Source: DHVE2 group archaeon
GTDB taxonomy: Archaea > Thermoplasmatota > Thermoplasmata > Thermoplasmatales > Aciduliprofundaceae
DNA: 64,000 bases
Assembly (NCBI GenBank): GCA_027023265.1
Contig: JALVVV010000055.1
Location: forward strand, 19,907 to 83,906
Direction: 5' to 3'
Below the pieces are notes generated by a model, which saw nothing but the letters and a program-made list of their open reading frames with translations, was not told where the DNA came from and searched no databases. Position numbers and translations under genes: made by a program. Shown here one piece after another: positions 22,886 to 45,948 of the stretch. Each line of letters starts with the position of its first letter. Position 1 is the stretch's first letter.

Positions 22886-23404
22886 TTAGCTTCCCCCGGT
22901 GATTTCCCGGAACACGTTCTCCACGTTCTCTCCCGTTTTTGCACTCGTGAAATAAAACGGGGAAGAGTACTCATCTGCAAGTTTTTTCAATTCGTCCTTC
23001 CAGAATTCTGCCTGGTACTTCAAATCGCTTTTGTTACCAATAAATATCATAATTCCATTGTAGCCGTCCAAAAATCGGGCTATTTCGTGCATTGTGTTTA
23101 GTGTATTTTTTCTAGTTATGTCCCCTACCACGAGTATGGCTTTTGAACCTCTAAGAATCTTATCCACATGCTCTTCGTATATGCTAACATCCCATACCAT
23201 TAGCGTGATTCCATCTACTTTCCTTTTGTATGCTTTGCTTTCCACGGTGCTTTCCGTGTCATCTTTAAACGTATCGTAAACAAACCGGTTCACAAGCGAA
23301 GTTTTACCAACTTCTGAATCTCCGAGCACACTGATTTTCCATATCTTAGGAGCTTTCATCCAACTTCCAATGACATTAGCTATATAAAGATTTTTCAAGG
23401 CCAT
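22886..23404 (-). CDS. Ras/Rab-like small GTPase paralog with a degenerate switch II (G3) motif
   Basis: G1 GDSEVGKTSLV, G4 GNKSDL, G5 TSAKTGENVE. The G3 position reads WDVSIYEE instead of DxxGQ. An alternative start is at 23359 (MKAPKIWKISVLGD). Confidence 0.8.
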   Translation of the reverse strand: MALKNLYIANVIGSWMKAPKIWKISVLGDSEVGKTSLVNRFVYDTFKDDTESTVESKAYKRKVDGITLMVWDVSIYEEHVDKILRGSKAILVVGDITRKNTLNTMHEIARFLDGYNGIMIFIGNKSDLKYQAEFWKDELKKLADEYSSPFYFTSAKTGENVENVFREITGGS

Positions 23405-23533
23405 GGTGTTTTTCGGCTGTTGATACCATGGCTTTTTTGAAATTTTGTAAGGAAAATATACTTAAATACTTTGATGAGCGGATTATCGGGAAATAGTTAA
23501 ATAAAATAAGAATATAAGATTGAATGAGAGGCC

Positions 23534-24337
23534 ATGGAAATCAAGAGGAAGGTGGTTCTTTTAGGCGATGCTGCGGTGGGAAAAACATCACTTGTAAGAA
23601 GGTTCGTTTTTGACTCCTTTGACGACAAGTACATAATGACCATTGGAACGAAGGTCAGCAAAAAGAAGATGAAAATGAGGGTTGAAGGCATTGATGTTGA
23701 CCTTACGCTAATGGTTTGGGACGTGTTGGGCCAGCAAGGATTTACACAGGTTCAGGAAGCAGCATTCAGGGGTAGTGACGGTGCTTTGATTGTTTGCGAT
23801 CTCACGAGAAAGGAGACTCTTTACAGCATATCTCATTACTGGTTGCCCATTCTTGAGAGAGTTGCAGGTGTCCCAGCCGTGCTTTTGGCAAACAAAAGTG
23901 ATCTGAATAACTGGGAGCTATCAACGGGGGAAATTGAAAGCTTTACAAATAATATAGGCGTTCCATATTTTTTGACCAGCGCAAAAACTGGTGAAAACGT
24001 GGAAGAGGCGTTTAAAAAACTCGCGGAAATGACGTTTGTATTCTATCCAATTAATGTGAATATTGAGAAAGAGAAAAATATGGAGAGTCTCAAAGACGTG
24101 CTTGATTACATAATGAATGATTTTGCATCGCAGTACGGAAGCTACGATGATGGAATGGCCGTGCTCACCGCTAACTTGAAGCTGGTAGGCATAAAAATTG
24201 ATAAACCCGGGCCATTGCAAATGGTTACCTTAATTGACAAACTTTATGCAATAGAAAAGGATTATCTGCCTGTAGAAAAGGCTAAAGAGAACCGCATCAA
24301 AAGGCTTGGATTGATGAAGAGGGTCAGGTGGTTATAA
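23534..24337 (+). CDS. Ras/Rab-like small GTPase with a C-terminal extension of about 95 aa
   Basis: G1 GDAAVGKTSLV, switch I MTIGTK, G3 WDVLGQQ, G4 ANKSDL, G5 TSAKTGENVE. A non-GTPase tail of roughly 95 aa follows. Confidence 0.88.
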   Translation: MEIKRKVVLLGDAAVGKTSLVRRFVFDSFDDKYIMTIGTKVSKKKMKMRVEGIDVDLTLMVWDVLGQQGFTQVQEAAFRGSDGALIVCDLTRKETLYSISHYWLPILERVAGVPAVLLANKSDLNNWELSTGEIESFTNNIGVPYFLTSAKTGENVEEAFKKLAEMTFVFYPINVNIEKEKNMESLKDVLDYIMNDFASQYGSYDDGMAVLTANLKLVGIKIDKPGPLQMVTLIDKLYAIEKDYLPVEKAKENRIKRLGLMKRVRWL

Positions 24338-24891
24338 TGTCAGAAGAGAAAGAAATTGAGGAAAAAGCAAGGGATTTGATGAAAAAAATAACGAGCAAAA
24401 ACCCATGTGGTTCCGGAGAGATAGACCTTATGGGGCGAAGGTACGTGCTTCTGTCAACGGAGTATTTCCCGTACGAGCTCACGAAGGACCTGGAAGAGAT
24501 TTTTGGAACTGCCGGGGATGCTGTCCTCTACAAAGGGGGAGAGCGAGTGGGCAGGGACTTGTACGGGCACTACATACATCTTGCAAGAGAATACGGAATA
24601 GAAATATGGGACATAATATCTGCAGTAGGCTGGTACTTTGGATGGGGTCTTGGAGAGGTCATAGAAAGGGGACACAACAACGGGAAATACGTTATCAGGG
24701 TTTACAACTCTTTTGAGTCAGAGAGTTTTATTGACAGGGAGAAAAAAGTGAAAAAGCCAGTATGTCATTTTATGAAAGGAGTGCTGAACGGAATAGTGGA
24801 GAGCATAGAGGTTGTGAAGTACAAGGCTGAGGAGACTAAGTGCAGGGCAAAGGGAGATGAATACTGCGAATTCGTCTTTACTCCTCTATAA
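24337..24891 (+). CDS. V4R (4-vinyl reductase) domain protein
   Basis: GRRYVLLSTEYF...EEIFGTAGDAVLYKGGERVG...CHFMKGVLNGIVE...EETKCRAKGDEYCEFVF matches the V4R pattern. The ATG overlaps the upstream TAA (TAATG), with AGGTGG 5 nt upstream. The track's GTG at 24328 is an alternative start. Confidence 0.85.
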   Translation: MSEEKEIEEKARDLMKKITSKNPCGSGEIDLMGRRYVLLSTEYFPYELTKDLEEIFGTAGDAVLYKGGERVGRDLYGHYIHLAREYGIEIWDIISAVGWYFGWGLGEVIERGHNNGKYVIRVYNSFESESFIDREKKVKKPVCHFMKGVLNGIVESIEVVKYKAEETKCRAKGDEYCEFVFTPL

Positions 24892-26458
24892 ATTCTTTTA
24901 GTTCTGGATAACTATTAACTGCATCTTCCGTTTTTCTGTAAGGTCTATTTCGTATTATGGATACTGCTTTTTTCTCTCCAATTCCGGGTATCGCCATGAG
25001 AGCCCGGTAACTTGCAGAGTTTATATTCAGAGGATACTCAACCCCTGTTACGCTTCTTTTGCCGTATCCGACAACTTTAACGTCAACGAATTTGCCAGTA
25101 TTATCTGGATATGGTAGAACAATTACGAGTGGGTATGAGCCTATTTGCCTTCCGTAGGTGTAATTCCCCTTTTTAACTTCCAGATACACGTCTTTTAAGA
25201 TGGTCATCTCTGGAACTATCCTTCTGAGCATCGGTGCGTCTATTTTTTCCCTGACTTCTTTTCTGAACTTCCAGCACTCGTGTTTGTACTTGAACTTGAA
25301 CTTTCCCCGAATCTCCGCTATCTGCCTTACATTTATTCTTCTTAATAGATATCCCCGGCTAAGTACTTCTTCTAAAAATTTAAAGCTCATTGCGTAGCTT
25401 TCCTTTCTCTCGCATCTCAAACCGCATATGAAATTCAATCCCGGTAAAAGTCGTGGCATGCCGTTTTCCCCTCGCTCTGAGCCCAGCTCGTTTACTATGC
25501 GAATTGCATCCATTACCTGTGATGGAGAGGTGTTAAGGTTGTTGCATTTTCTAACTTCAGGGTCTGCGGATTCCATTCCAAAAGATACTACGTTTCCAGG
25601 GGTAGTGTACTTTACCAGAACTTCAGTAATCTTCTCACTTTCATCTTGGTACGTAGCTATCACTGCGGGGTTTGCATTGTCCACATGCAGCACCTTGGGA
25701 TTTAATTTGTGTAATCTTGAAAAGAGAGAGCGTATTGCCCCGACATTTGGTTGCACAATATCTTTCTCTCCAACACCAAAACCCTTGTATGAGTATATGC
25801 AGCTTTGTCCACCAACCCTGAAATTCAGAACTCCCAGTTTCCTTAGTGTCTCTACTTCTTTTACTATATCATCAACGTCCCTGAACACCGGTTTTCCATA
25901 AAGGGGTTCTATGCAGAAAGAACAACCACCGGTTATGTATCTGGGGCAGCCTCTGAAAGTTTCTATTTCTGCAATTATGCTGTAGGGGAAGTCAGGATGC
26001 TGCTCCACAATATATGAGCCATTCAAAAGCCAGCGATTCCACTCATTTAGGCTATGAAACCTGTGTCCATCAAAATTATCTGTCAGTACATCATATAGAA
26101 GAGCATCCACATCTTTTTTTGCGATGTAATCAAAGCCATCTTTTATTATCCCGAATCTTGCCAGTCCACCTCCCAGAATTTTCAATCCTTTGAAGCTCCG
26201 AGCAATGTCCATAACTTCTCTTATTGATGCAGGGTATGTTCGGAGGTACTTTCCGGGGACAACGGCGCCTCCAATGAATATCAGCAGTTCTCCGGGAACA
26301 CTTTCACCTTTTCTCCACCGGTCAATGCTCATGTACCTGCAATCCACGCCCAGTTCCCTGCAAACACCCGCAACCTGTCTTATGTACGGAGATATATATG
26401 GGGGCACGCCCAGCATTGACGGTTCGTCCACGTACCCGTCCAGAATTGTTGCTAACAT
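24878..26458 (-). CDS. Radical SAM protein with a C-terminal helix-hairpin-helix motif (COG1031-like)
   Basis: ETFRGCPRYITGGCSFCIEP Cys cluster and C-terminal ALMAIPGIGEKKAVSIIRNRPY (HhH). Confidence 0.75.
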   Translation of the reverse strand: MLATILDGYVDEPSMLGVPPYISPYIRQVAGVCRELGVDCRYMSIDRWRKGESVPGELLIFIGGAVVPGKYLRTYPASIREVMDIARSFKGLKILGGGLARFGIIKDGFDYIAKKDVDALLYDVLTDNFDGHRFHSLNEWNRWLLNGSYIVEQHPDFPYSIIAEIETFRGCPRYITGGCSFCIEPLYGKPVFRDVDDIVKEVETLRKLGVLNFRVGGQSCIYSYKGFGVGEKDIVQPNVGAIRSLFSRLHKLNPKVLHVDNANPAVIATYQDESEKITEVLVKYTTPGNVVSFGMESADPEVRKCNNLNTSPSQVMDAIRIVNELGSERGENGMPRLLPGLNFICGLRCERKESYAMSFKFLEEVLSRGYLLRRINVRQIAEIRGKFKFKYKHECWKFRKEVREKIDAPMLRRIVPEMTILKDVYLEVKKGNYTYGRQIGSYPLVIVLPYPDNTGKFVDVKVVGYGKRSVTGVEYPLNINSASYRALMAIPGIGEKKAVSIIRNRPYRKTEDAVNSYPELKEFIEE

Positions 26459-27558
26459 TTTACCAGTAACTCGTTTGCCTTTCTCATTATTCTAAACTCG
26501 CCTATGCTCTCTGCTACCTTCTTTGCCTCTTCCAGGTGAAATCTGGCCGCTTCTTTCATGTTGCTTTCAAGGAGAACTCGGCCAATGGCAAGCTCGCACT
26601 CGCTCAGAAATACCCTGTGGTTAATTTTCACAAAAATTGAACGAGCATCGTTATAAGTTCTCATGGCTTTCCTGTAATCTCCACTTTTCTCATATACGTA
26701 GCCAAGGTTTAGCAAAGACTCTCCTATTGTGCTTTTATTTTTAACTTCTTTGGATAGCTCCACCGCCTCGTTTGCAAGTTTCATGGCTTCATCGTATTTT
26801 CCCCTGTCTGCAAGAATTACAGCTAAGTATCCAAGCGTGGACGATTCTATTTCCTTGTCTTCGTGATTTTTGTAGAGTTCCACAGCTTCCCTCAAATATC
26901 TCTCTGCATCATCTAACTCTCCAGATTCTCTTGCCATGTCGCCCATGTTTAGCAGATTTATAGACATGCCCCGGTAATCGTTTCCCCTTTTCGAATGTTC
27001 GTAAGCATGCTTGTAGTGCTCGATGGCGTTTCGGTACTCTCCTCTAACTCTGAATACTTCCCCCATGTTGTTATAGGCTATTGCTATTAACTCGTCATCT
27101 CCTATCTTTTTTGAGATTTCTAGGCACCGCTCCCAGCTTTTCTTTGCATATCCTATCCTGCCCCTGTCAAAAGAGTATATGCCAACTAAGTTGTAAAAAT
27201 TGAACATTGTCTCCGGCTTTGATTTCTCAGCGTGCTTGAACCCTAACTTTATCAAATGCTCACATGTATCTATATTCCCAAGGCTCATGTTTATTTCTAT
27301 TGCAGAAGTGTATATCTTGGTTAATGTATCGTCATCACCTGAAGATTCTGCAAATTTAATAGCATCGTTAACGTGTTCCCTCGCAAGTATTGATTCGCCA
27401 ATCCTTATATATACCCTTGATAAACCGTAATGGATGAGTGCTTTATCTATGTCCCTGCTTGCTTCACCGAGAGCGTTTTCGTACAATTTCCGAGCCTCTT
27501 CGTAATTTCCATTTCTGCGGAGTTCTTCTCCTTTCTTAAGAACATCCTGTATATTCAT
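26452..27558 (-). CDS. TPR-repeat protein (stand-alone)
   Basis: Repeated 34-40 aa units such as AYNNMGEVFRVRGEYRNAIEHYKHAYEH. Its stop overlaps the downstream radical SAM start by 7 nt (ATGTTAG). Confidence 0.8.
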   Translation of the reverse strand: MNIQDVLKKGEELRRNGNYEEARKLYENALGEASRDIDKALIHYGLSRVYIRIGESILAREHVNDAIKFAESSGDDDTLTKIYTSAIEINMSLGNIDTCEHLIKLGFKHAEKSKPETMFNFYNLVGIYSFDRGRIGYAKKSWERCLEISKKIGDDELIAIAYNNMGEVFRVRGEYRNAIEHYKHAYEHSKRGNDYRGMSINLLNMGDMARESGELDDAERYLREAVELYKNHEDKEIESSTLGYLAVILADRGKYDEAMKLANEAVELSKEVKNKSTIGESLLNLGYVYEKSGDYRKAMRTYNDARSIFVKINHRVFLSECELAIGRVLLESNMKEAARFHLEEAKKVAESIGEFRIMRKANELLVKC

Positions 27559-27762: not shown

Positions 27763-28200
27763 ATGTTCTGGACGGGAGTGGCGCTGGTGATAATTGGCCT
27801 TATTCTTCTTTTAGCAGAGGTCCATGTTCCCGGATTTTTTATGGCCATTCCAGGAACCATACTTCTGATTCTGGGGCTTGCCATAATGTTCGTAGGGAAT
27901 GTGGATATCGTAACCGCATCGGTTTTGATAATAGTTGCAGCTATTGGCTCATCTCTATTTACGCTATGGTTTTACAGAAAACTGGGTGAGCCGGAACTTC
28001 CAAGCACAACAACTCCTGATCAGCTGGTTGGAAAAACAGGTGTGGTAATCAGGGAAATAGAGCCCAATACCATCAAAGGAAAAATCAGGATTGGAACTGA
28101 GATTTGGAGCGCCACTGCGGATAGCAAGATAGATGAAGGTAAAAAAGTTATTGTGAAAAAAGCGGAAGGAGTGCATCTTGTAGTTGAGGAGGTGAAATAA
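27763..28200 (+). CDS. NfeD-family membrane protein (short form)
   Basis: N-terminal TM helices and a C-terminal OB-like segment, GKTGVVIREIEPNTIKGKIRIGTEIWSA. Immediately precedes the SPFH gene. Confidence 0.8.
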   Translation: MFWTGVALVIIGLILLLAEVHVPGFFMAIPGTILLILGLAIMFVGNVDIVTASVLIIVAAIGSSLFTLWFYRKLGEPELPSTTTPDQLVGKTGVVIREIEPNTIKGKIRIGTEIWSATADSKIDEGKKVIVKKAEGVHLVVEEVK

Positions 28201-28202
28201 AA

Positions 28203-29297
28203 ATGGATTTGTGGATAATTGGCGGTATAGTGTTTTTGATAGTGATACTGGTTGTAATATTCTTCTCCACGGCGGTTAGGATAGTGAAGCCATGGGAACG
28301 GGGTATATACATATTCCTTGGAAAACATCGCGGGGTTTTGAATCCCGGGTTTCACGTGGTTTACCCGTTTGCCCAGGTTTACCCAATAGACATGAGGACC
28401 CAGACATGGGATGTTCCTAAGCAAGAGGTAATTACGAAAGATAATTCTCCAACCGGTGTGGATGCTGTGATATACATACGCGTGGTAGATGCATATAAAG
28501 CATTTTACGAGGTACAGGATTACAAGCTGGCCACGATAAATCTTGCAAGAACTACTTTGAGGTCAGTTATAGGTAACATGTCTCTGGATGAGGTGCTTTA
28601 CAACAGAGAGCAGATTAACGCCCATCTCCGAGATGTTCTGGACGAAGCAACGGACCAGTGGGGAGTTAAAGTAGAGGCAGTTGAAATCAAAGAGGTTGAC
28701 CCATCTAAGAAGGTAAAGCAGGCAATGGAAGAGCAAACTTCGGCAGAGAGAGAAAGAAGAGCGGCAATACTCCGCGCGGATGGTGTCAAGCGCTCCCAGA
28801 TCCTTGAAGCGGAAGGTAAGAAGCAATCTGCAATTCTTGAAGCGGAAGGTAAGAGACAGGCAAATATCTTGGAAGCAGAAGGTATGAGGATAGCCACAAT
28901 CTTGAAAGCGCAGGGCGAAGCCCAGAGGTATCGTATAATCTCATTAGGTTCTGCAACGCTCACTTCTAAGGCTCTAAGCGTTCTTTCGCTGGATACTTTA
29001 ACGAGAATGGCCGACGGGCAGGCAACAAAGATAATATTCCCGTTCGAGATTACAAAGCTAATTGAGACCACTGCCAACTACCTTGGAGTTCCTGTAAAAG
29101 AAGCGGTTAGCGAAGATACGAATTACGAGGACATAGAGCGTGTGGTGGGCAAAGCCGATGAAATACTTGGACCAATACCTTCGTACGAGGAAATAGAAAA
29201 GGAAACAAAGGAGGCAAAAGAGAGCATTGACGAAAAAAAGGTTGATTTGTCAAGTACCGATGAGAAAAAGCTGTTTACGGGCTCATCGGATGCTTGA
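28203..29297 (+). CDS. SPFH/Band 7 (stomatin/prohibitin-like) protein
   Basis: N-terminal TM, SPFH core (VITKDNSPTGVDAVIYIRVVD...LRSVIGNMSLDEVL) and a coiled-coil tail with ILEAEG repeats. Confidence 0.9.
   Translation: MDLWIIGGIVFLIVILVVIFFSTAVRIVKPWERGIYIFLGKHRGVLNPGFHVVYPFAQVYPIDMRTQTWDVPKQEVITKDNSPTGVDAVIYIRVVDAYKAFYEVQDYKLATINLARTTLRSVIGNMSLDEVLYNREQINAHLRDVLDEATDQWGVKVEAVEIKEVDPSKKVKQAMEEQTSAERERRAAILRADGVKRSQILEAEGKKQSAILEAEGKRQANILEAEGMRIATILKAQGEAQRYRIISLGSATLTSKALSVLSLDTLTRMADGQATKIIFPFEITKLIETTANYLGVPVKEAVSEDTNYEDIERVVGKADEILGPIPSYEEIEKETKEAKESIDEKKVDLSSTDEKKLFTGSSDA
28800..28931 (+). repeat. Four tandem 33-nt (11-aa) units inside the SPFH gene
   Basis: ILEAEGKKQSA / ILEAEGKRQAN / ILEAEGMRIAT / ILKAQGEAQRY, read directly from the DNA. 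Confidence 0.8.
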
Positions 29298-37703: not shown

Positions 37704-38975
37704 TTAGAATTCTTTCTTCTCGACCTCAATGCACTGCCCTGCAGCTACGGTCTGGCCCATATCTCTAACGGCAAACCTGCCAAGCTGTGGAATTTCCTTT
37801 ACGGGCTCTATGACCATTGGTCTGGTGGGGCGAATCTTCACTATTGCTATGTCTCCGGTCTTTATGAAATCTGGGTGGTCCTGTTTGGTAGAGCCAGTTC
37901 TCGGATCGAGGGTCTTTATGATTTCTTCAAATGTGCATGCAACCTGTGCGGTATGGGCGTGGAACACAGGTGTGTATCCCGGTGCGATAACGCTTGGATG
38001 GTTCAGCACGACTATCTGCGCGGTGAACGTCTTGGCCACTGTGGGCGGGTTGTTGCTGTGTCCTGCCACGTCTCCTCTCCTTATGTCCTTCTTGCCCACG
38101 CCTCTTACGTTGAACCCAACGTTGTCTCCAGGATACGCTTCTTTCATTGCCTGGTGGTGCATCTCTATGCTTTTAACTTCTCCACCTACATTTGCAGGCA
38201 TGAATGTTACCTTATCACCCACCTTGAGAACTCCTGTCTCAACGCGGCCCACCGGCACGGTTCCTATTCCTGTTATGCTGTAAACGTCCTGTACAGGTAG
38301 GCGAAGTGGCTTGTCAGTTGGCTTCGGCGGAAGCTTCAATCCATTCAGGAGCTCTATGAGCGTGGGGCCATTCCACCATGGCATGTTCTCGCTCTTCTTC
38401 ATTACGTTATCTCCCTTGTAACCGCTAATCGGAATGATGGGCACGTCCTTCCATCCTATCATGGCCAGCAGCTTCTCCACCTGCTTCTTAACTTCCTCAA
38501 ATCTCTCCTTGCTGTAGGGTGGCTTTGTTGCATCCATCTTGTTTATGGCAACTATGAGCTGTGGAACGCCCAGTGTCCTGGCGAGGAACAGGTGCTCTTT
38601 GGTCTGCTCCATAACACCCTCAGGTGCAGCTACTATGAGTATGGCCGCATCTGCCTGAGATGTACCTGTAATCATGTTCTTCACGAAATCCCTGTGCCCC
38701 GGGGCATCGATTATCGTGAAATAGTACTTGTCCGTAACGAACTTGCGGTGTGCTACATCTATTGTCACACCTCTCTCTCTCTCCTCCTTCAGGCGGTCCA
38801 TAACCCATGCGAACTCGAAAGTAGCCTTACCCTTCTCTTCAGCTTCCTTTCTGTAGTTCTCTATTATTCTCTGGTCAATTTCGCCATGCTCGTACAGCAG
38901 TCTTCCCACAGTGGTTGACTTGCCGTGGTCCACATGTCCGATGAACACGATATTCATATGTGGTTTTTCTGCCAT
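37704..38975 (-). CDS. tuf: Translation elongation factor aEF-1alpha
   Basis: [17 protein letters not shown] and NKMD motifs. Full-length, 423 aa. Confidence 0.97.
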
Positions 38976-39098: not shown

Positions 39099-42000
39099 TT
39101 ATTTATTAAACGTACTGTTTCCATTGCTTTGATTATCAAATTTGCCGAGCAATTTAGTGATTTTACTGACGTAGTACTCGAATCCCAGTTCTTTAAATAT
39201 GGTTTTGGCAGATTTTAAAAGATTTATGCCCTCTTCTATTGAGGAATCCAGTTTTATTAGTCCCATGTCCATCAGGGAAAGGGCATAGTTTCTCCTTATA
39301 TCTGTTTTCTCAGATAATTTTATTGCCTCTTTTATGTATTTCTCTCCGTTTTCAACATCCCCTGTTAATCCCATGACCTTTCCAATGAGTCGCAGTGGAT
39401 TTATTTTCATTATTTTGGATTTTTCCTCTTCTGCTATTTCCAAGGCGGCTTTTGCATGTGCCATCGCTTCATTGTAATTTTTCGTTTCTACCATGATCTC
39501 TGCCATGGTGATGTGGCTCTCATACAGACACTCTTTACAGTTTATATCACTGAGGATTTTTAAGCTTTCGTTAATATCCTCCACTGCTTCTTTCTCGTTT
39601 CCAGATGCAAACATGAGGGTAGCGATATCTCTTTTTGTCTCGCCTATCCCAATATCTGAATTTATGGATTCATATAATTCCATGGCTTTCATGTAAAATT
39701 CGTATGCATCGTCAAATTTACCCCTGAAATAGTGAATGTTGCCAATATACCTGTAGAGATCCGCTATGCTTTCTTTATCGTCCTGCTCTTTAGCAATATT
39801 CAAGGCTTTTTTAAAGTAATCCATTGCTTCGTTTAACATTCCCCATGTTGCATATATCACACCTATGTTCATATATGCAAGCATAGTGGAGAACCAGTCA
39901 TTAATCATCTCGCTTATTGATAAGCTCATTAGATAGTACTCCACTGCCTTGTGCAGGTTCTCTCTCTTTGCGTATATGTTTCCTATATTTGTAAGCACTA
40001 TGGGCCTGCTACTGTACACATACCCTATTTTGTCAAGTATTTTAAGTGCGTTTTTGTAATTTTCCAGCGCATCATCTAACTTTCCCATCGCATCGCAGGT
40101 TGCTCCCAGATTGTTATAATCAGTGGCAAGACCGTATAGGTCATTTATTTTCTCTCTTATCTTCATGGCCTTCATAAAATACTTATATGCGCTTTCAAAA
40201 TCCATCATATGCTCGTATATCGTTCCTAACACGTGATACGCATCTGCCTCTTCTTTGGTGAAGCCTTTTGATATCGCTATATCTGCTCCTTTTTTTGCAT
40301 ATTTTATTGCGTCATTTAGCTTGCTTCGCCGGATATACATCCATGCAATATCCAGATATATCTTTGCAGCTATGGAATTTTCATCACTTAGCATTGATAA
40401 AGCATTATAATACATGTCCTTTGCCTCGTCCCATTTTCCCATGCTGTCCATAGTTCTACCCATTCTTTCAAGGTACTCTGCGGCGTTATTTTTATTGCCC
40501 GTTGCTCTTGCTATTTTTAGTGCATTTTCAAGGTCACTTATACTTTTAGCGTACTCCCCCATGATTCTGTGCAATTCCCCTAATTCTGAATAAAGAAATT
40601 CCAGCTTCTCATCGTCTATGTTAAGTTCCTTTGCTTCCATGTATATTTCCAACGCGTCTTCATATGCGTAGATGTCCTTGGCACGTGCTGCGCCATTTAT
40701 GAAATACTCGTATGCTTTTTCTGGCACCTCACCCAGCTTGTAATGCCTGGCAATGTTTACCAGATACTTCTCATCATGTCCTTTTTCTTTCTCCATTACT
40801 TTTGCAATTTTTCGGTGAAGTAATTTTCTCTTTATTATTGACATTTCAGCGTATATTTCCTCTCTGACTATTCTTTCTTTAAATATATAGAAACCCGTAT
40901 CGGGGTCTTCCTCCCAAATGCCGACGGAGCTTATCCTTTCAAGCGCATCTATTAAATCAATCTCGTCTATTCCTACGGCTTTACCGAGTATTTCCGGGTC
41001 GATTCTGTATCCATATACAGTACCCACTTCCAGAACTCTTTTTTCAAGGGGTGTTAACATATCATATTTTCTGCTAACTATTGATTTTACAAGCTCTGGA
41101 ATACTTATACCGCCTCCCAAATTCTCATCGATGGATTCCATCATGTTCAGAGCCAATTCTCTAACAAAGAGAGGGTTGCCGCCACTGTATTCGTAAATCA
41201 TCTTTTTTACTTTTTCGTCAACGTTTCTTCCCGCAATTTTGTCTATCATTTCACTAACATCTTTGTATTTAAGTTCTCTCAGTTTTATCTCCTTATACAG
41301 TTTTTCTCTCATCATTTTGGATAGTACATCTCGAAGCGTATCGGTGATTTCCTCTCTTCTGAATGTGCATACAAATAGAATTCTCCTATCTTTTAGATTT
41401 CGTATTAGATAATGAAGAAGTTTAAGTGATGAGGAATCCATCCATTGAATATCGTCAAAAAAGATGAAAAGCTTGTTATTTTCCGTAAGTTGCTTTATTT
41501 TTTCCGTAAATTGATAAAACATTGCATTTCTCTGGTACTCTATATTCTCATTTTCACCGTGTTTTTGGGTATTTTTCAATACAGTACCTATCTCATCTCC
41601 GAATGCTTCTACAATGGGTAGATACGGAACTGTGGAATCATAATACGCCTTTGAATATAGAAATTTAAAGCCCCGTGACAGTGCATAGTTTTTAGCTTTC
41701 ATTACAAGGGTGGTTTTACCAATTCCAACTTCCCCAGATATCACCAGTGCATTTCCTTCTTTCTCAGAGGCTTCAATCATCTCAATAATTTCTTTCAGTT
41801 CTTTTTCTCTTCCCACAAAAACATCATCTTCTTCAATTCCGAGAGAATCAAAGAGAGATATTGCTGTAGAGGAAAATATCCTGTCACTATATTTAACGTA
41901 AACTTTTCTACCATTTGGAACTACGATATCTATCAGGTTCTTAAGGAACTCTACAAACGACTTTTCAGAAGCCATTTCTATCATGTACTCTGTGCATTCT

Positions 42001-42617
42001 ATATAGACATCTTTTTCTTTTATATCTTTTAACATTTCCAAACCAATTTCAAGAAAACGTTCCACCGAGCCGAACTCTCCGACGTACACTCCGTTTACAC
42101 CCTTATTAGATGTTATAATTACTGCAGTATTCCCTGAATATTCTTTTACCATAATCACTTTCGGATTCTCCATCTTTGTGTGTTTCTCATATGTGAAATC
42201 CGAAATAGAGCTCCAGCTTTTGGGATTTCCATTAACTCCCAAAACCAAGGTTAGGTTTTTATTTAGCGATTTGACTCTTTTTATCCAGTCAATTACGCGC
42301 TCCTTGCCATTAATTATGCTCAAATAATCTATTCCGTCCACCATAATACATTTTCCACCGGAGTTAACGTATTCTTCGACGATTTCCATCATCTCAAAAT
42401 CAAGACGTTCTGGATACACGGTGCCTTTTTTCCCATTACGGGTTATCCATACTACCTTTTTCACTCCGTATCTTTCTTTCAAAACTACATTGGGTTTTAT
42501 GCTCAAAATGAGGGAATCTGGGCACTGATTTAAAGCTAAATACGCAGAATGCACATTGGCTATAACATTAATCTTACCTTTTACAAGAGGTATCATACAG
42601 CTATCCATCATTTCCAC
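39099..42617 (-). CDS. Large STAND-type NTPase: N-terminal DUF835-like module(s), AAA_16/ORC-like P-loop NTPase, winged-helix-like segment, and a long TPR array
   Basis: aa 40-130, SLILSIKPNVVLKERYGVKKVVWITR...IMVDGIDYLSIINGKERVIDWIKRV, resembles DUF835. Walker A GEVGIGKTT (41709-41735). Walker B LFIFFDDIQWMD. About 500 aa of TPR units, e.g. DYNNLGATCDAMGKLDDALENYKNALKIL. Start is ambiguous (GTG 42617, ATG 42611 or 42608). Confidence 0.85.
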   Translation of the reverse strand: MEMMDSCMIPLVKGKINVIANVHSAYLALNQCPDSLILSIKPNVVLKERYGVKKVVWITRNGKKGTVYPERLDFEMMEIVEEYVNSGGKCIMVDGIDYLSIINGKERVIDWIKRVKSLNKNLTLVLGVNGNPKSWSSISDFTYEKHTKMENPKVIMVKEYSGNTAVIITSNKGVNGVYVGEFGSVERFLEIGLEMLKDIKEKDVYIECTEYMIEMASEKSFVEFLKNLIDIVVPNGRKVYVKYSDRIFSSTAISLFDSLGIEEDDVFVGREKELKEIIEMIEASEKEGNALVISGEVGIGKTTLVMKAKNYALSRGFKFLYSKAYYDSTVPYLPIVEAFGDEIGTVLKNTQKHGENENIEYQRNAMFYQFTEKIKQLTENNKLFIFFDDIQWMDSSSLKLLHYLIRNLKDRRILFVCTFRREEITDTLRDVLSKMMREKLYKEIKLRELKYKDVSEMIDKIAGRNVDEKVKKMIYEYSGGNPLFVRELALNMMESIDENLGGGISIPELVKSIVSRKYDMLTPLEKRVLEVGTVYGYRIDPEILGKAVGIDEIDLIDALERISSVGIWEEDPDTGFYIFKERIVREEIYAEMSIIKRKLLHRKIAKVMEKEKGHDEKYLVNIARHYKLGEVPEKAYEYFINGAARAKDIYAYEDALEIYMEAKELNIDDEKLEFLYSELGELHRIMGEYAKSISDLENALKIARATGNKNNAAEYLERMGRTMDSMGKWDEAKDMYYNALSMLSDENSIAAKIYLDIAWMYIRRSKLNDAIKYAKKGADIAISKGFTKEEADAYHVLGTIYEHMMDFESAYKYFMKAMKIREKINDLYGLATDYNNLGATCDAMGKLDDALENYKNALKILDKIGYVYSSRPIVLTNIGNIYAKRENLHKAVEYYLMSLSISEMINDWFSTMLAYMNIGVIYATWGMLNEAMDYFKKALNIAKEQDDKESIADLYRYIGNIHYFRGKFDDAYEFYMKAMELYESINSDIGIGETKRDIATLMFASGNEKEAVEDINESLKILSDINCKECLYESHITMAEIMVETKNYNEAMAHAKAALEIAEEEKSKIMKINPLRLIGKVMGLTGDVENGEKYIKEAIKLSEKTDIRRNYALSLMDMGLIKLDSSIEEGINLLKSAKTIFKELGFEYYVSKITKLLGKFDNQSNGNSTFNK

Positions 42618-42658: not shown

Positions 42659-44863
42659 TTAGAGGCCTGCGTAATATGCCTCGTCATAGGGTTCTGGTTT
42701 CAAACCCTTTCTTTCGCGGATCTTGCGAACTATCTGCGGCTGCAGGTCCCTCGGCACGCGCTCGTATCCGGAGTTCTCAGTGCTCCAGAGGACTCTTCCA
42801 CCCGTGGCGCTTCTGATTGCGGAAGCGAAGCCGAACATCTCTGCCACCGGCGCCTTCGCGTGGATTATCGTCTGGTAGTCTTCCTGCTCCATGTCCTCTA
42901 TGATACCTCTTCTCTGCTGCAACTCCCTTGTTACTGCACCCACAAGCTCCGTGGGCACATTGACGTATACCTTTTGCATGGGCTCCAGGAGAACGCGGGT
43001 TGCCTGACACATCGCACCGTATATTGCATTGCGCACGGCAGGTATTACCTGCGCAGGACCGCGATGGATACTGTCTTCGTGGAGCTTTGCATCCACCAGC
43101 CTTACCTTTACTCCATATAGCTTCTCATTTGCCAGAGGTCCCTTTTCCACAGCTTCAAAGAATGCCTGTTTTACCAATTCCATGGTCTCATTCAAATACT
43201 GGACACCCCAGGTCATGTCCAAGAGTATGTTCGGGCCGCGGATTGCTTCAATTTTCTTAGCTTCATCTCTTGATAATCCAGCCTCTTCCAGCTTCTTGGT
43301 TATTGCTTTCCTATCCTTTATCCTATCCATTTCGGGAATTTCTCCGCTTTCAATTGCCTCTACAACTCCTTTTTCCAGGGGCTCAACTTCAATGTAGAAC
43401 TTGTTGTGCTTGTTCGGTGACTTACCTTCAAATGGCCCCGCCTTGTGGTCCACAGTTTCTCTATAAACCACGATTGGGGGAGAGGTTATCACTTCAACCT
43501 TGTACTCGTTAACTATGCGATAAACGGTGACCTCTAAATGCAATTCTCCCATTCCGCTAAGGAGGTGCTCACCCGTTTCCTGGTTTATTTCTACTCTCAG
43601 GCTCGGATCCGCTTTGGATACCGTGCGCAAAACTTCTATTAAACGAGGCAAGTCCTTGGTGTGCTTTGCTTCAATTGCCACGGTGACCACCGGTTCGCTG
43701 TAGTGTTTCATCGGTTCAAATGGCTCTATGTCCGGCTCGGTGGATACGGTTGAACCCGCAATCGCATCTTTAAGGCCGATAATGGCAGGGATATTTCCTG
43801 CATCCAGCTCGTCAACGGGTATTCTATCAGGCCCCACCATCATCGAAAGTTGCTGAATCCTGTACTTTTTCTTGCCTGCACCTATTATGTAGAGTTCTTG
43901 TCCTTTTCTGAGTGTGCCGCTGAAAAGACGGCCCACAGCAACCTCGCCAGCGTGCGGGTCCATGACTATTTTGGTTACCATCATTGCCACAGGTCCCTTC
44001 GGGTCACAGGTGAGCATAGCCTTCCCTATGGGACTCTCTAAGTCCCCATGCCATATTTTTGGAATTCTATATTTTTGAGCCTCCTTGGGGTTTGGCAGGT
44101 GCTTGACCACCATATCAAGAACGACCTGATGAAGGGGTGCCTTCTTTGCAAGTTCCTTTTGCTTATCTTGCTGAAGGTGCTCGAACACGTCTTTGAAGGA
44201 TATCCCAGATTTCTTCATGAACGGTACGCTTATTGCCCAGTTGTGATAAGCTGAGCCGAAAGCCACGCTGCCATCCTCCACGCGAACCATCCACTTGTCC
44301 CTGTATTCTTCTTCCGCGTATCTCCTTATCAACTTGTTAATTTCCTTAATTATCTTCTCAAATCGAGCCATCATTTGCTGACCGTCTAACTTGAGCTCGT
44401 TGATGAGACGGTCAACTTTGTTTATGAAAAGCACAGGCTTTACCCTCTCCCTGAGCGCCTGGCGAACTACAGTCTCGGTCTGAGGCATGATTCCTTCCAC
44501 GGCACAAACCACTACCACTGCACCATCAACAGCCCTCATGGCTCGAGTCACATCACCTCCGAAATCGACGTGGCCGGGAGTATCCAGTAGATTAATCAAA
44601 TACTCATTTCCCTCGTACTCGTGAACCATGCTGGCAGATGCAGTGTTAATTGTTATGCCGCGAGCCTGCTCCTGCTCATCGTAATCCAGAACCAGCTGCT
44701 TGCCGGCAAGTTCTTCTGACATCATACCCGCGCCAGCTATCAGATTATCGCTGAGCGTGGTCTTTCCGTGATCTATGTGAGCAGCAATACCTATGTTTCT
44801 TATGTGCTCAACGTCACCCATTATTTTCATTGCTTTTTTGATATTATCCTCTTTCCTTCCCAT
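42659..44863 (-). CDS. fusA: Translation elongation factor aEF-2
   Basis: [18 protein letters not shown] and NKVDR. Diphthamide-site context [11 protein letters not shown]. Confidence 0.97.
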
Positions 44864-44873
44864 CTAAATCACC

Positions 44874-45440
44874 TTATCTTGCAGATGCCGCCACGCGCTC
44901 AATCTCTTCTTTCTTGGAGACTGCGTAGCTCGAAACGTCATTTTTCGAGGCCTTGATAATCTCGTCGGCAAGGCACTCTGCGGCGGATTTTGTATTTCGG
45001 AACGTGGAATTTACTGCTCCAAGCGCAATGTTGCGGAGAGCAATGTCCACCCTTCTTGATGGGGCCACGTCCACCGCCTTTGGCACGGCTATACCTGCCA
45101 TCTTCAACCTCGTAACTTCTTCTCGGGGTGCTGCGTTTATTATGGCATTAACCAGTACCTGCACCGGATTCTGCTTTGTTCTTTTTTCTATTATTTCAAA
45201 TGCGCCTTTTACAACGCCGTAAGCACTCATCTTTTTCCCAGTATATTTCTCCGTACGCATCATGTGGTTTATGAGCCTCTCAACTATGTTTACCTTGGAT
45301 TTCCCCAGGTGCCTCAGAACATGCCTCCCGTGGGTATGAAGCACCATTCTGGGCTCAAGGTTAATGTACCTTACCAGCCCAGGGTCTTTGACAACTACAT
45401 CATCCGTGGAGTATTTTCCAAATATAAGAAAGTCCACCAT
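44874..45440 (-). CDS. rps7: 30S ribosomal protein S7 (uS7)
   Basis: Position between S12 and EF-2, plus [41 protein letters not shown] upstream. Confidence 0.93.
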
Positions 45441-45444
45441 ACAA

Positions 45445-45873
45445 TCACCTCACAGGTTTCTCCTTTCTACCGCGAACAAGTTCGTTCAGGGATATCCCGT
45501 TTACTTTTATAACTTTATAACGCACTCCGGGGATATCTCCTTTGGAGCGCCCCAGCCTTCCGCCTATTCCTTCAATAACAACCTCATCGTGCTCATCTAT
45601 GAAATTTATGGCACCGTTGCCAGGTGCAAAAGCAGTTACAACCCTTCCGTTCTTTATGAGCTGCACCTTCACGCACTTTCTTATGGCGGAGTTGGGCTGC
45701 TTTGCCTCAATACCTACTTTTTCAATAACTATGCCGCGAGCCTGAGGCGAGCCCTCCAGCGGGTCGCTCTTTTCTTTCAAATGAAGAACTCTCCTCTTGT
45801 GATACTTATCACTCCACCTGAGCTTTTGCCTATCTTCACGCAGTTTTCTTGCATTGTAAAGTCCATTTCCCAT
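45445..45873 (-). CDS. rps12: 30S ribosomal protein S12 (uS12)
   Basis: [19 protein letters not shown]...[19 protein letters not shown] before the ATG at 45873. The track's N-terminal extension is implausible. Confidence 0.93.
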
Positions 45874-45948
45874 GGGAATCACCCTTTTGAAGCACCTAAA
45901 TAACCATGCATATAAAAATTTTATTACGTTTGAGCGCATTATTCCTCT

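What the first reader, a model, noticed from the sequence alone, without database searches (positions are those of the whole stretch)
22886..24891. Divergent Ras/Rab-like GTPase paralogs, one translationally coupled to a V4R (Bet3/TRAPP-fold) protein
Seen in sequence:
- Two small GTPase genes face away from each other across a 129-bp AT-rich spacer.
- They share near-identical G1 (GD..VGKTSLV), G4 (NKSDL) and G5 (TSAKTGENVE) segments, so they are paralogs.
- The + copy carries a non-GTPase tail of about 95 aa.
- Its TAA stop overlaps the ATG of a V4R-domain gene (TAATG at 24335-24339), with AGGTGG 5 nt upstream. That is classic translational coupling.

Established knowledge:
- The V4R fold has been reported as the prokaryotic relative of the Bet3-type subunits of TRAPP, the eukaryotic Rab GEF complex.
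- Characterised prokaryotic small GTPases (MglA) pair instead with Roadblock/MglB.

Inference: this could be a minimal GTPase plus V4R regulator or sensor module, a possible prokaryotic counterpart of the Rab-TRAPP relationship. I know of no experimental characterisation of this pairing outside Asgard-focused surveys.
Basis: partly seen in the sequence, partly recalled or inferred. Interest (0 to 1): 0.75.

Follow-up and report, generated by a model that had tools for sequence, protein, structure and literature searches.

The report
Ras-like GTPase paired with V4R sensor
In this archaeal genome a Rab/Ras-like switch protein is co-translated with a small V4R sensor-fold protein, and this is a local version of a gene pairing that is near-obligatory in related archaea and that I did not find described, linking Rab-like GTPases to the protein fold eukaryotes use in their Rab-activating TRAPP complex.

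Summary
Two divergent Ras-family genes lie at 22886-23404(-) and 23534-24337(+). A 184-aa V4R gene (24337-24891) overlaps the stop of the second by TAATG, with AGGTGG 5 nt upstream.

- GTPase-1 is a conserved degenerate GTPase that lacks the G3 DxxGQ motif. It most likely starts at 23359 (157 aa).
- The GTPase-2 tail is a family-specific four-helix domain with no match in the PDB.

The V4R model matches the zinc-site aromatic sensors MopR/PoxR best (TM 0.65-0.69). Bet3/TRAPPC3 matches only at fold level (TM about 0.5).

In Thermoplasmatota, 72 of 72 evaluable V4R-DUF835 genes have a Ras gene directly upstream, usually with a 4-nt or 1-nt overlap. Some operons contain Ras followed by a stand-alone V4R, as here. 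In the window's own DHVE2 lineage, however, the linkage is seen only in a near relative; orthologues of all three genes are dispersed in other genomes.

Best reading: a GTPase/V4R signalling pair in which V4R is a ligand or redox sensor. A TRAPP-like GEF role is possible but unsupported. I found no published description of this pairing.

The parts
22886..23359 (-). GTPase-1: a 157-aa degenerate Ras-family GTPase. G1, G4 and G5 are intact, G3 DxxGQ is deleted and the interswitch is shortened. The longest ORF extends to 23404.
   Evidence: Pfam Ras 6e-27. The G3 deletion is conserved in all 16 family clusters, which are 155-158 aa long. pN/pS is 0.26 against L007, with synonymous sites saturated.
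23360..23533 (.). AT-rich divergent intergenic region (31-32% GC). It has TATA-like boxes about 20-25 nt upstream of each start codon and an inverted repeat, AAGGCCATGGT/ACCATGGCTTT, at 23397-23435.
   Evidence: Composition. Inverted repeat (1 match in the window, 0 in 100 shuffles). The promoter reading is inference from the sequence.
23534..24037 (+). GTPase-2 G domain: Rab/Ras-like with canonical G1-G5, including DVLGQ.
   Evidence: Pfam Ras 2e-36. Best PDB sequence hits are Thorarchaeota Rab 7ezb (5e-29) and Rab1B (4e-25). Alignment A1.
24038..24334 (+). GTPase-2 C-terminal tail: a conserved four-helix domain specific to this GTPase family.
   Evidence: AF2 gives pLDDT above 90 over residues 21-100 of the fragment, with four helices. 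No PDB match has E below 1. Only 226 hits in 1.84 billion representatives, mostly at the C-terminus of 265-300-aa proteins. No Pfam hit.
24326..24339 (+). Coupling junction: AGGTGG Shine-Dalgarno-like motif, 5 nt, then ATG overlapping the TAA stop (TAATG).
   Evidence: The same GGTGG...TAATG junction is present in L007. 10 of 71 Ras-to-V4R junctions elsewhere have the same 1-nt overlap and 29 of 71 have a 4-nt overlap.
24337..24891 (+). Stand-alone V4R-domain protein of 184 aa with a conserved Cys/Glu/Cys/Cys zinc-site signature (C143, E166, C169, C177).
   Evidence: Pfam V4R 3.7e-14. AF2 pLDDT 82, pTM 0.81. Foldseek finds MopR/PoxR/DmpR at 1e-8 and Bet3/TRAPPC3 at 2e-5. Invariant ligand columns in A3. 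hhalign to the V4R part of V4R-DUF835 gives 98.4% probability, E 4.6e-15.
39099..42617 (-). Possibly related in trans (speculative): a 1172-aa DUF835 (iKaiC-like) + AAA_16 STAND NTPase + TPR protein. DUF835 is the domain fused to V4R in the modules of other Thermoplasmatota.
   Evidence: Pfam DUF835 2e-13, AAA_16 2e-21, TPR. Any link to the locus is inference only.

Best explanation
GTPase-2 and the V4R protein are made from one transcript in coupled fashion and act as a pair. Together they are a lineage-specific version of a Thermoplasmatota-wide signalling module in which each V4R gene is immediately preceded by a Ras-family GTPase gene.

Proposed mechanism (inferred, not shown):
- The V4R protein carries a zinc-stabilised pocket like the aromatic sensors MopR/PoxR and the redox sensor MsvR. 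It senses a small hydrophobic ligand or a thiol/redox state.
- It binds its cognate GTPase roughly 1:1, probably as a V4R dimer.
- In doing so it sets, or reads, the GTPase's nucleotide state.
- The GTPase passes the signal on through its family-specific four-helix tail. In other lineages the signal would pass through the DUF835 (inactivated KaiC-like) domain fused to V4R.

GTPase-1 is a conserved switch-II-defective small GTPase. Its membership of the module is uncertain.
For: Shown:
- Stop/start overlap plus SD motif, conserved in L007.
- All three genes are under purifying selection, with pN/pS 0.20-0.28 and pS saturated.
- Seeding on V4R-DUF835 in metagenomes, 72 of 72 evaluable loci have a same-strand Ras gene directly upstream. 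Junctions are -4 nt in 29 cases, -1 nt in 10, and mostly 20 nt or less otherwise. No Ras or V4R gene occurs in 134 kb of flanks more than 2.5 kb away. Pfam confirms the domain classes.
- 16 four-gene operons have the order Ras, V4R-DUF835, Ras, stand-alone V4R (162-192 aa). That mirrors the window's Ras followed by stand-alone V4R.
- Operons combining tail-Ras, short Ras and V4R-DUF835 occur in several Thermoplasmatota genomes.
- V4R-linked tail-Ras proteins fall in three separate clades of an NJ tree. The window's linkage therefore looks independently derived, which argues for selection for co-expression.
- The window V4R is homologous to the module V4R with the Zn ligands aligned.
- The fold is closest to ligand-sensor V4Rs, and there is a sub-threshold MsvR V4R hit.
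Against: - There is no direct evidence of physical interaction. No multimer prediction was possible.
- Within DHVE2 the linkage is limited to near relatives. P0012 (67%), P0015 (64%) and P0029 (57%) have no V4R neighbour.
- V4R orthologues P0131 (61%), P0135/P0137 (about 50%) and P0140 (38%) have no GTPase neighbour. P0131 keeps the downstream radical-SAM/TPR synteny only.
- GTPase-1 orthologues sit beside the tRNA-splicing endonuclease gene instead.
- The window V4R lacks DUF835, and it is not shown to derive from the module V4R rather than from another V4R family.
- The NJ tree has no support values.
- The ligand is unknown.
Confidence: 0.55

Rival explanations
1. TRAPP-like exchange factor. 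The V4R protein, as a Bet3-like dimer, is the GEF for GTPase-2, making this a minimal prokaryotic forerunner of the Rab-TRAPP relationship.
For: - V4R and Bet3/TRAPPC3 share a fold: Foldseek E 2e-5 to 1e-3, TM about 0.5, including Thor TRAPPC3 7yh3 and TRAPP-Rab complex chains 7kmt and 7u05.
- V4R/Bet3 homology was proposed by Podar et al. 2008 (PMC2253512).
- GTPase-2 is most similar to Thorarchaeota Rab and Rab1.
- Ras-V4R gene pairing is obligatory in the wider module.
Against: - From established knowledge, the GEF surface of TRAPP is built mainly by the longin subunits Bet5/Trs23 with a Bet3 C-terminal segment (as summarised in PMC10933270).
- No longin or Roadblock gene was found among the genes scanned near the locus.
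- The window V4R keeps the Zn/Cys site typical of sensor V4Rs and is structurally nearer to MopR/PoxR.
- There is no Pfam TRAPP hit.
- The GTPase lacks a prenylatable C-terminus.
Confidence: 0.1
2. Effector or scaffold. GTP-bound GTPase-2 recruits V4R (V4R-DUF835 in other lineages) as its downstream effector or assembly platform. V4R does not control the nucleotide state.
For: - The gene order is always Ras first, then V4R.
- According to Galperin et al. 2018 (PMC5847659), DUF835 is an output-type domain in archaeal response regulators (REC-DUF835).
- Solved V4R/Bet3-fold proteins (PoxR, TRAPPC3/C6, Thor-TRAPPC3) are dimers that scaffold larger assemblies (PMC10933270).
Against: - The conserved Zn/ligand-pocket signature suggests input sensing rather than passive scaffolding.
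- The available data do not discriminate this reading from the best explanation.
Confidence: 0.2
3. Coincidental or merely co-expressed neighbours in this DHVE2 sub-lineage. On this reading the stand-alone V4R is an independent small-molecule sensor or carrier, perhaps tied to the downstream radical-SAM/TPR genes or to carbon metabolism, and the GTPase pair was inserted next to it.
For: - The V4R, radical-SAM and TPR synteny is kept in L088 without any GTPase.
- V4R orthologues follow an FGGY sugar kinase gene in L087 and L090.
- GTPase-2 and GTPase-1 orthologues are elsewhere in related genomes.
Against: - A 1-nt stop/start overlap with an SD motif, conserved in L007, is not expected for unrelated genes.
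- Chance adjacency of one particular gene to one of a few V4R genes in a genome of about 1,500 genes is below 1% (inference).
- The same Ras-to-V4R pairing is universal in the sister module.
Confidence: 0.13

Closest known systems
MglA/MglB and related prokaryotic small-GTPase modules (conservon CvnA-D, Rup group 1 neighbourhoods; Wuichet & Sogaard-Andersen 2015, PMC4316618)
   Same: A Ras-superfamily small GTPase is encoded in an operon with a small dimer-forming alpha/beta regulatory protein, often inside a signal-transduction context.
   Different: The partner here has the V4R fold, not Roadblock/LC7. The GTPase has a canonical DxxGQ and is Rab/Ras-like rather than MglA-like. That survey has no occurrence of the term V4R and describes no such partner.
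Eukaryotic TRAPP (Bet3/TRAPPC3) with Rab1/Ypt1, and Asgard TRAPPC3-like proteins (Tran et al. 2024, PMC10933270)
   Same: A Rab-like GTPase together with a V4R/Bet3-fold protein. Foldseek matches Bet3, TRAPPC3 and Thor TRAPPC3 at E 2e-5 to 6e-4.
   Different: The match is at fold level only (TM about 0.5) and there is no Pfam TRAPP hit. No longin subunits were found. The Zn/Cys site is retained. Tran et al. report that MK-D1 GTPase genes are generally not in operons with TRAPPC3, Roadblock or longin genes, whereas here the operon link is tight.
V4R sensor domains of MopR/PoxR/DmpR (phenol-responsive activators) and of MsvR (methanogen redox regulator)
   Same: These are the best structural matches (E 1e-8, TM 0.65-0.69). 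The Cys/Glu/Cys/Cys zinc-site pattern aligns. There is a sub-threshold NCBIfam MsvR hit over the V4R part.
   Different: In those proteins V4R is fused to a AAA+/HTH or wHTH DNA-binding output. Here it stands alone (or is fused to DUF835 in relatives) and is coupled to a GTPase gene. There is no DNA-binding domain.
Archaeal Rab-like GTPases (Surkont & Pereira-Leal 2016, PMC4915359; Thor-Rab PDB 7ezb)
   Same: GTPase-2's best PDB sequence hit is Thor-Rab (5e-29). That survey already reported single Rab-like proteins in Aciduliprofundum and a Thermoplasmatales archaeon.
   Different: Those authors noted the absence of an extended C-terminal region. GTPase-2 carries a structured 100-aa four-helix tail. 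There is no C-terminal Cys. Rab family membership was not tested phylogenetically.

Membership tests
Ras-superfamily small GTPase (Pfam PF00071) | Profile match above the curated threshold | tested here: met
   GTPase-1 scores 94.6 bits and GTPase-2 125.4 bits against a cutoff of 21.6.
Ras-superfamily small GTPase (Pfam PF00071) | Complete G1-G5 nucleotide-binding and switch motifs, including G3 DxxGQ | tested here: met
   GTPase-2 has GDAAVGKT, T36, DVLGQ, NKSD and SAK.
Ras-superfamily small GTPase (functional switch), applied to GTPase-1 | G3 DxxGQ / switch II | tested here: not met
   GTPase-1 reads WDV---SIYEE. The deletion is conserved in all 16 family clusters. G1, G4 and G5 are intact, so nucleotide binding is plausible but the canonical switch is not.
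Rab family | C-terminal prenylatable cysteine(s) and a hypervariable tail | tested here: not met
   GTPase-2 ends ...KRVRWL and GTPase-1 ends ...ITGGS, with no C-terminal Cys. The tail is a folded four-helix domain.
Rab family | RabF/RabSF motifs and phylogenetic placement within Rabs | not tested
   Only similarity ranking is available: the best PDB hits are Thor-Rab and Rab1.
V4R domain (Pfam PF02830) | Profile match above the curated threshold | tested here: met
   53 bits against a cutoff of 31, over residues 125-183.
V4R domain (Pfam PF02830) | V4R/Bet3-type alpha/beta fold | tested here: met
   The AF2 model (pLDDT 82) matches MopR, PoxR, DmpR, MJ1460 and Bet3 with probability 1.00.
Sensor-type V4R (MopR/PoxR-like) | Cys/Glu/Cys/Cys zinc-site residues | tested here: met
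   C143, E166, C169 and C177 are invariant in A3 and align with the MopR C...E..C.......C pattern. Metal binding itself is not testable here.
Sensor-type V4R (MopR/PoxR-like) | Binding of a small ligand in the pocket | not testable with these tools
   Needs biochemistry.
TRAPP Bet3/TRAPPC3 family | Sequence-profile membership (Pfam TRAPP) | tested here: not met
   V4R was the only Pfam family reported at E 0.01 or better. The structural match is at fold level only, TM about 0.5.
TRAPP Bet3/TRAPPC3 family | Association with longin-domain subunits and GEF activity on a Rab | tested here: not met
   No longin or Roadblock domain was found among the genes scanned around the locus. GEF activity is not testable here.
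MglA/MglB-type module | Roadblock/LC7 partner gene adjacent to the GTPase | tested here: not met
   The neighbours are ribulose-phosphate 3-epimerase, V4R, radical SAM and TPR genes.
Thermoplasmatota Ras + V4R-DUF835 module (defined here) | A V4R gene immediately downstream of a same-strand Ras gene with an overlapping or near-overlapping junction | tested here: met
   The window has a TAATG junction.
Thermoplasmatota Ras + V4R-DUF835 module (defined here) | DUF835 domain fused to V4R | tested here: not met
   The window V4R is 184 aa with no DUF835. It resembles the second, stand-alone V4R of the four-gene operons in architecture only.
Translationally coupled gene pair | Stop/start overlap with an upstream SD-like motif inside the upstream gene | tested here: met
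   AGGTGG, 5 nt, then ATG overlapping TAA. The junction is conserved in L007. Actual coupling is not testable here.

The most novel reading that the evidence does not exclude
V4R/Bet3-fold proteins are ancient, direct, stoichiometric partners of Rab/Ras-like GTPases in archaea outside Asgard. On this reading the eukaryotic Rab-TRAPP relationship descends from a pre-existing archaeal 'GTPase + V4R' two-protein switch, and was not assembled de novo from an unrelated ligand-binding domain.
Probability: 0.12. Interest if true: 0.85.

Novelty: new variant of a known kind. Interest (0 to 1): 0.62.

Why it matters
Small Ras-like GTPases in prokaryotes are known to pair with Roadblock/MglB-type regulators. 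What V4R proteins do in archaea has been open since they were proposed as the ancestors of the TRAPP subunit Bet3 (Podar et al. 2008).

A tight, recurrent Ras-to-V4R operon gives both families a concrete and testable partner. It defines a GTPase-based signalling module, V4R sensor plus Ras switch plus DUF835/iKaiC, that appears common in Thermoplasmatota.

It also offers a non-Asgard system for asking whether the Bet3 fold contacted Rab-like GTPases before eukaryotes arose. In Asgard genomes the lack of operon linkage was reported to make GTPase-regulator matching hard (Tran et al. 2024).

Tried and rejected
- Tail domain related to V4R or DUF835 (for example mimicking the Bet3 dimerisation helices): hhalign gave nothing, with probability below 1%.
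- Tail fold against the PDB: no match with E below 1. No Pfam hit.
- The 181-aa protein after the tail-Ras in L093 as a cryptic V4R: hhalign probability 0.7% and no Pfam hit.
- Anti-phage defence system: no PADLOC hits for the three proteins or for V4R-DUF835. Only generic TPR hits appeared for the TPR proteins.
- GTPase-1 as the orthologue of the module's short Ras: BLAST shows about 40% identity to everything and no specific affinity. Its orthologues sit next to the tRNA-splicing endonuclease gene.
- Ancestral, vertically kept linkage in DHVE2: contradicted by the unlinked orthologues and by the NJ tree.
- A first metagenome scan using a nine-sequence V4R-DUF835 alignment failed because no stretch was conserved enough. 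It was repeated with six sequences.
- Profile search of V4R-DUF835 against the PDB found only V4R structures and nothing for the DUF835 half.
- Literature searches for V4R or vinyl reductase together with GTPase, and for DUF835, found no description of the pairing.
- No multimer structure prediction could be run.
Full report
OBSERVATION

- GTPase-1 is 22886-23404(-), 172 aa from the most upstream ATG.
- GTPase-2 is 23534-24337(+), 267 aa.
- The V4R gene is 24337-24891(+), 184 aa.
- Pfam gives Ras for both GTPases (6e-27 and 2e-36) and V4R for the third protein (53 bits against a cutoff of 31).
- The TAA stop of GTPase-2 (24335-24337) shares its last A with the ATG of V4R. AGGTGG lies 5 nt upstream.
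- The spacer is 129 bp at 31% GC, compared with 42% for the window.
- The G1, G4 and G5 segments are nearly identical in the two GTPases, although the G domains are only 40% identical overall.

GTPase-1 is not a normal switch. It has lost the G3 DxxGQ motif (WDV---SIYEE) and about ten residues of the interswitch hairpin. This is a family trait, not decay:

- 16 protein clusters of 155-158 aa at 57-69% identity all carry the same deletion.
- Against the relative L007, pN/pS is 0.26 with synonymous sites saturated.

The family lengths, together with a TATA-like box about 20 nt upstream, place the true start at the ATG at 23359, giving 157 aa.

GTPase-2 has all five G motifs. Its closest solved relatives by sequence are Thorarchaeota Rab (7ezb, 5e-29) and Rab1.

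The 100-aa tail of GTPase-2 is conserved across a large Thermoplasmatota family.
- It is predicted with pLDDT above 90 as a four-helix domain.
- It has no structural match in the PDB.
- In 1.84 billion representative proteins it is found only 226 times, mostly at the C-terminus of proteins of 265-300 aa.

THE V4R PROTEIN

The AF2 model (pLDDT 82, pTM 0.81) is a complete V4R/Bet3-type domain. Foldseek ranks the matches as follows:

- The aromatic-sensor domains of MopR, PoxR and DmpR come first (E 1e-8 to 7e-6, TM 0.57-0.69).
- Bet3/TRAPPC3, MJ1460, YslB, H-NOX and Thor TRAPPC3 follow (E 2e-5 to 1e-3, TM about 0.5).

The residues Cys143, Glu166, Cys169 and Cys177 are invariant in the family and align with the MopR zinc ligands. 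NCBIfam gives a sub-threshold hit to the V4R half of the redox regulator MsvR. That MsvR is a redox sensor rests on my own knowledge, not on a result here. The protein is therefore a V4R of the sensor type. Its relation to TRAPP holds at the level of fold only.

COMPARATIVE GENOMICS: THE WIDER PICTURE

The organism is close to DHVE2-group Thermoplasmatota. The best genome match, L007, is 74% identical for GTPase-2 and is fully syntenic, including the TAATG junction.

In more distant Thermoplasmatota the GTPase-2 family member lies in operons of three genes: tail-Ras, short Ras and V4R-DUF835.

I then ran the reverse test and seeded a metagenome scan with V4R-DUF835:

- 72 of 72 evaluable loci have a same-strand Ras gene directly upstream.
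- The junctions overlap by 4 nt in 29 cases and by 1 nt in 10 cases, the latter as in the window. Most of the rest are within 20 nt.
- The 134 kb of flanking DNA more than 2.5 kb away contain no Ras gene and no V4R gene.
- Pfam confirms the domain classes.

The architectures seen are:

- Ras, then V4R-DUF835 (the minimal form).
- Tail-Ras, Ras, then V4R-DUF835.
- Ras, V4R-DUF835, then tail-Ras.
- Ras, V4R-DUF835, Ras', then a stand-alone V4R of 162-192 aa.

The last pair in the four-gene form has the same architecture as the window's GTPase-2 followed by V4R. The window V4R family aligns to the V4R half of V4R-DUF835 with 98.4% probability and with the zinc ligands in register. DUF835 has been described as an inactivated KaiC-like output domain of archaeal response regulators (PMC5847659).

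COMPARATIVE GENOMICS: THE NARROWER PICTURE

Inside the DHVE2 lineage the linkage is shallow.

- GTPase-2 orthologues at 67%, 64% and 57% identity have no V4R neighbour.
- V4R orthologues at 61%, about 50% and 38% have no GTPase neighbour. The 61% one keeps only the downstream radical-SAM/TPR synteny.
- GTPase-1 orthologues at 57-62% lie directly upstream of the tRNA-splicing endonuclease gene.
- One assembly (GCA_054041575.1) has both a GTPase-1 orthologue and a V4R orthologue on different contigs.

An NJ tree of tail-Ras proteins places the V4R-linked ones in three separate clades. The window and L007 are nested among unlinked DHVE2 sequences (the tree has no support values). The most economical reading is that the linkage here arose secondarily. 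If so, that is itself evidence that co-expression of a tail-Ras with a V4R is advantageous.

MECHANISM

Shown:
- Operon anatomy and coupling signals.
- Purifying selection on all three genes.
- A near-obligatory Ras-V4R gene pairing in the phylum.
- A sensor-type V4R fold with a zinc-site signature.
- A family-specific helical tail.
- A degenerate second GTPase.

Inferred:
- V4R binds its cognate GTPase. The one-V4R-per-Ras gene pattern suggests 1:1 stoichiometry, probably on a V4R dimer, as in solved PoxR and TRAPPC3 structures (PMC10933270).
- V4R couples a ligand or redox signal to the nucleotide state.
- Output goes through the tail, or through DUF835 in other lineages.

Whether V4R acts as GEF, GAP, GDI or effector cannot be decided here. 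A TRAPP-like GEF role is the least supported of these. From established knowledge, TRAPP's catalytic surface needs longin subunits, and none was found among the scanned neighbours. GTPase-1's participation is doubtful given its different context in other genomes.

COMPARISON WITH WHAT IS KNOWN, AND NOVELTY

- Prokaryotic small GTPases are documented with Roadblock/MglB partners and with various signalling neighbours. The term V4R does not occur in that survey (PMC4316618).
- The paper proposing V4R as the Bet3 ancestor does not mention GTPases (PMC2253512).
- The structural study of Asgard Rab, Roadblock and TRAPPC3 proteins states that GTPase genes are generally not in operons with TRAPPC3 genes (PMC10933270).
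- Rab-like proteins in Aciduliprofundum and a Thermoplasmatales archaeon were already noted, described as lacking C-terminal extensions (PMC4915359).
- Searches for the pairing found nothing. The library covers open-access papers only.

I therefore rate this as a new variant of a known kind: a prokaryotic small-GTPase module with a new class of partner.

VERDICT

The interpretation as a GTPase/V4R module is well supported at phylum level and plausible for this locus. The TRAPP-counterpart reading is a fold-level analogy with low probability.

Interest is 0.62. It gives two poorly understood archaeal protein families a testable partnership, and it bears on the origin of Rab regulation. There is no interaction evidence yet, and the linkage in this particular lineage is recent.

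Noticed in passing
window 39099-42617 (-): A 1172-aa protein with an N-terminal DUF835 (iKaiC-like) domain, an AAA_16 STAND NTPase and TPR repeats. It sits between the EF-1alpha gene (37704-38975) and the EF-2, S7 and S12 genes (42659-45939). DUF835 is the domain fused to V4R in the Ras/V4R modules of other Thermoplasmatota.
   Followed up: partly
window 23397-23435: An inverted repeat, AAGGCCATGGT/ACCATGGCTTT (core 8/8 bases, 17-nt spacer), in the divergent GTPase-1/GTPase-2 intergenic region. It is unique in the window and absent from 100 shuffles. It may be an operator site.
   Followed up: partly
L174 5001-6340 and L175 5001-6348: Orthologues of the degenerate GTPase-1 lie immediately upstream of the tRNA-splicing endonuclease gene, overlapping it or 1 nt away. 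In L174 they lie downstream of archaeosine tRNA-guanine transglycosylase. This hints at a tRNA-processing link for this pseudo-GTPase family.
   Followed up: partly
L012 3-6828: One uncultured Thermoplasmata contig carries seven complete tandem, same-strand tail-Ras paralogues plus a tail fragment at the contig start, with no V4R gene nearby.
   Followed up: no
L008 4525-7560, L009 2582-5617, L001 1484-2596, L091 2-1948: In the closest unlinked DHVE2/Thermoplasmata relatives, the tail-Ras gene is flanked by a large TPR protein. Pfam, scanned for L008 and L091 only, finds AAA_16 (STAND NTPase) plus TPR in L008 and TPR alone in L091. L009 and L001 were grouped with these by BLAST clustering. This is a second recurrent neighbour family.
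   Followed up: partly
L104 5962-6519, L116 5961-6536: In the two second Ras proteins read from four-gene operons (L104, L116), G3 is DxxGH: the catalytic Gln is replaced by His.
   Followed up: no
L024 344-1291, L026 1073-2005, L036 483-1418, L078 6612-7520: Some V4R-DUF835 proteins have lost all the zinc-site cysteines of the V4R domain, so the metal site is not universal in the module.
   Followed up: no
window 24878-27558 (-) and L088 5554-8228: The V4R gene keeps a convergent radical-SAM + HHH gene (526 aa) and a 368-aa gene (a TPR protein in the window) as downstream neighbours even in a relative that has no GTPases at the locus.
   Followed up: partly
window 27763-29297 (+): An NfeD and SPFH/Band-7 (stomatin-like) gene pair lies two genes beyond the locus.
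   Followed up: no
L093 5835-6380: A 181-aa protein with no Pfam hit directly follows a tail-Ras (49% identical to GTPase-2). hhalign does not detect it as V4R.
   Followed up: partly
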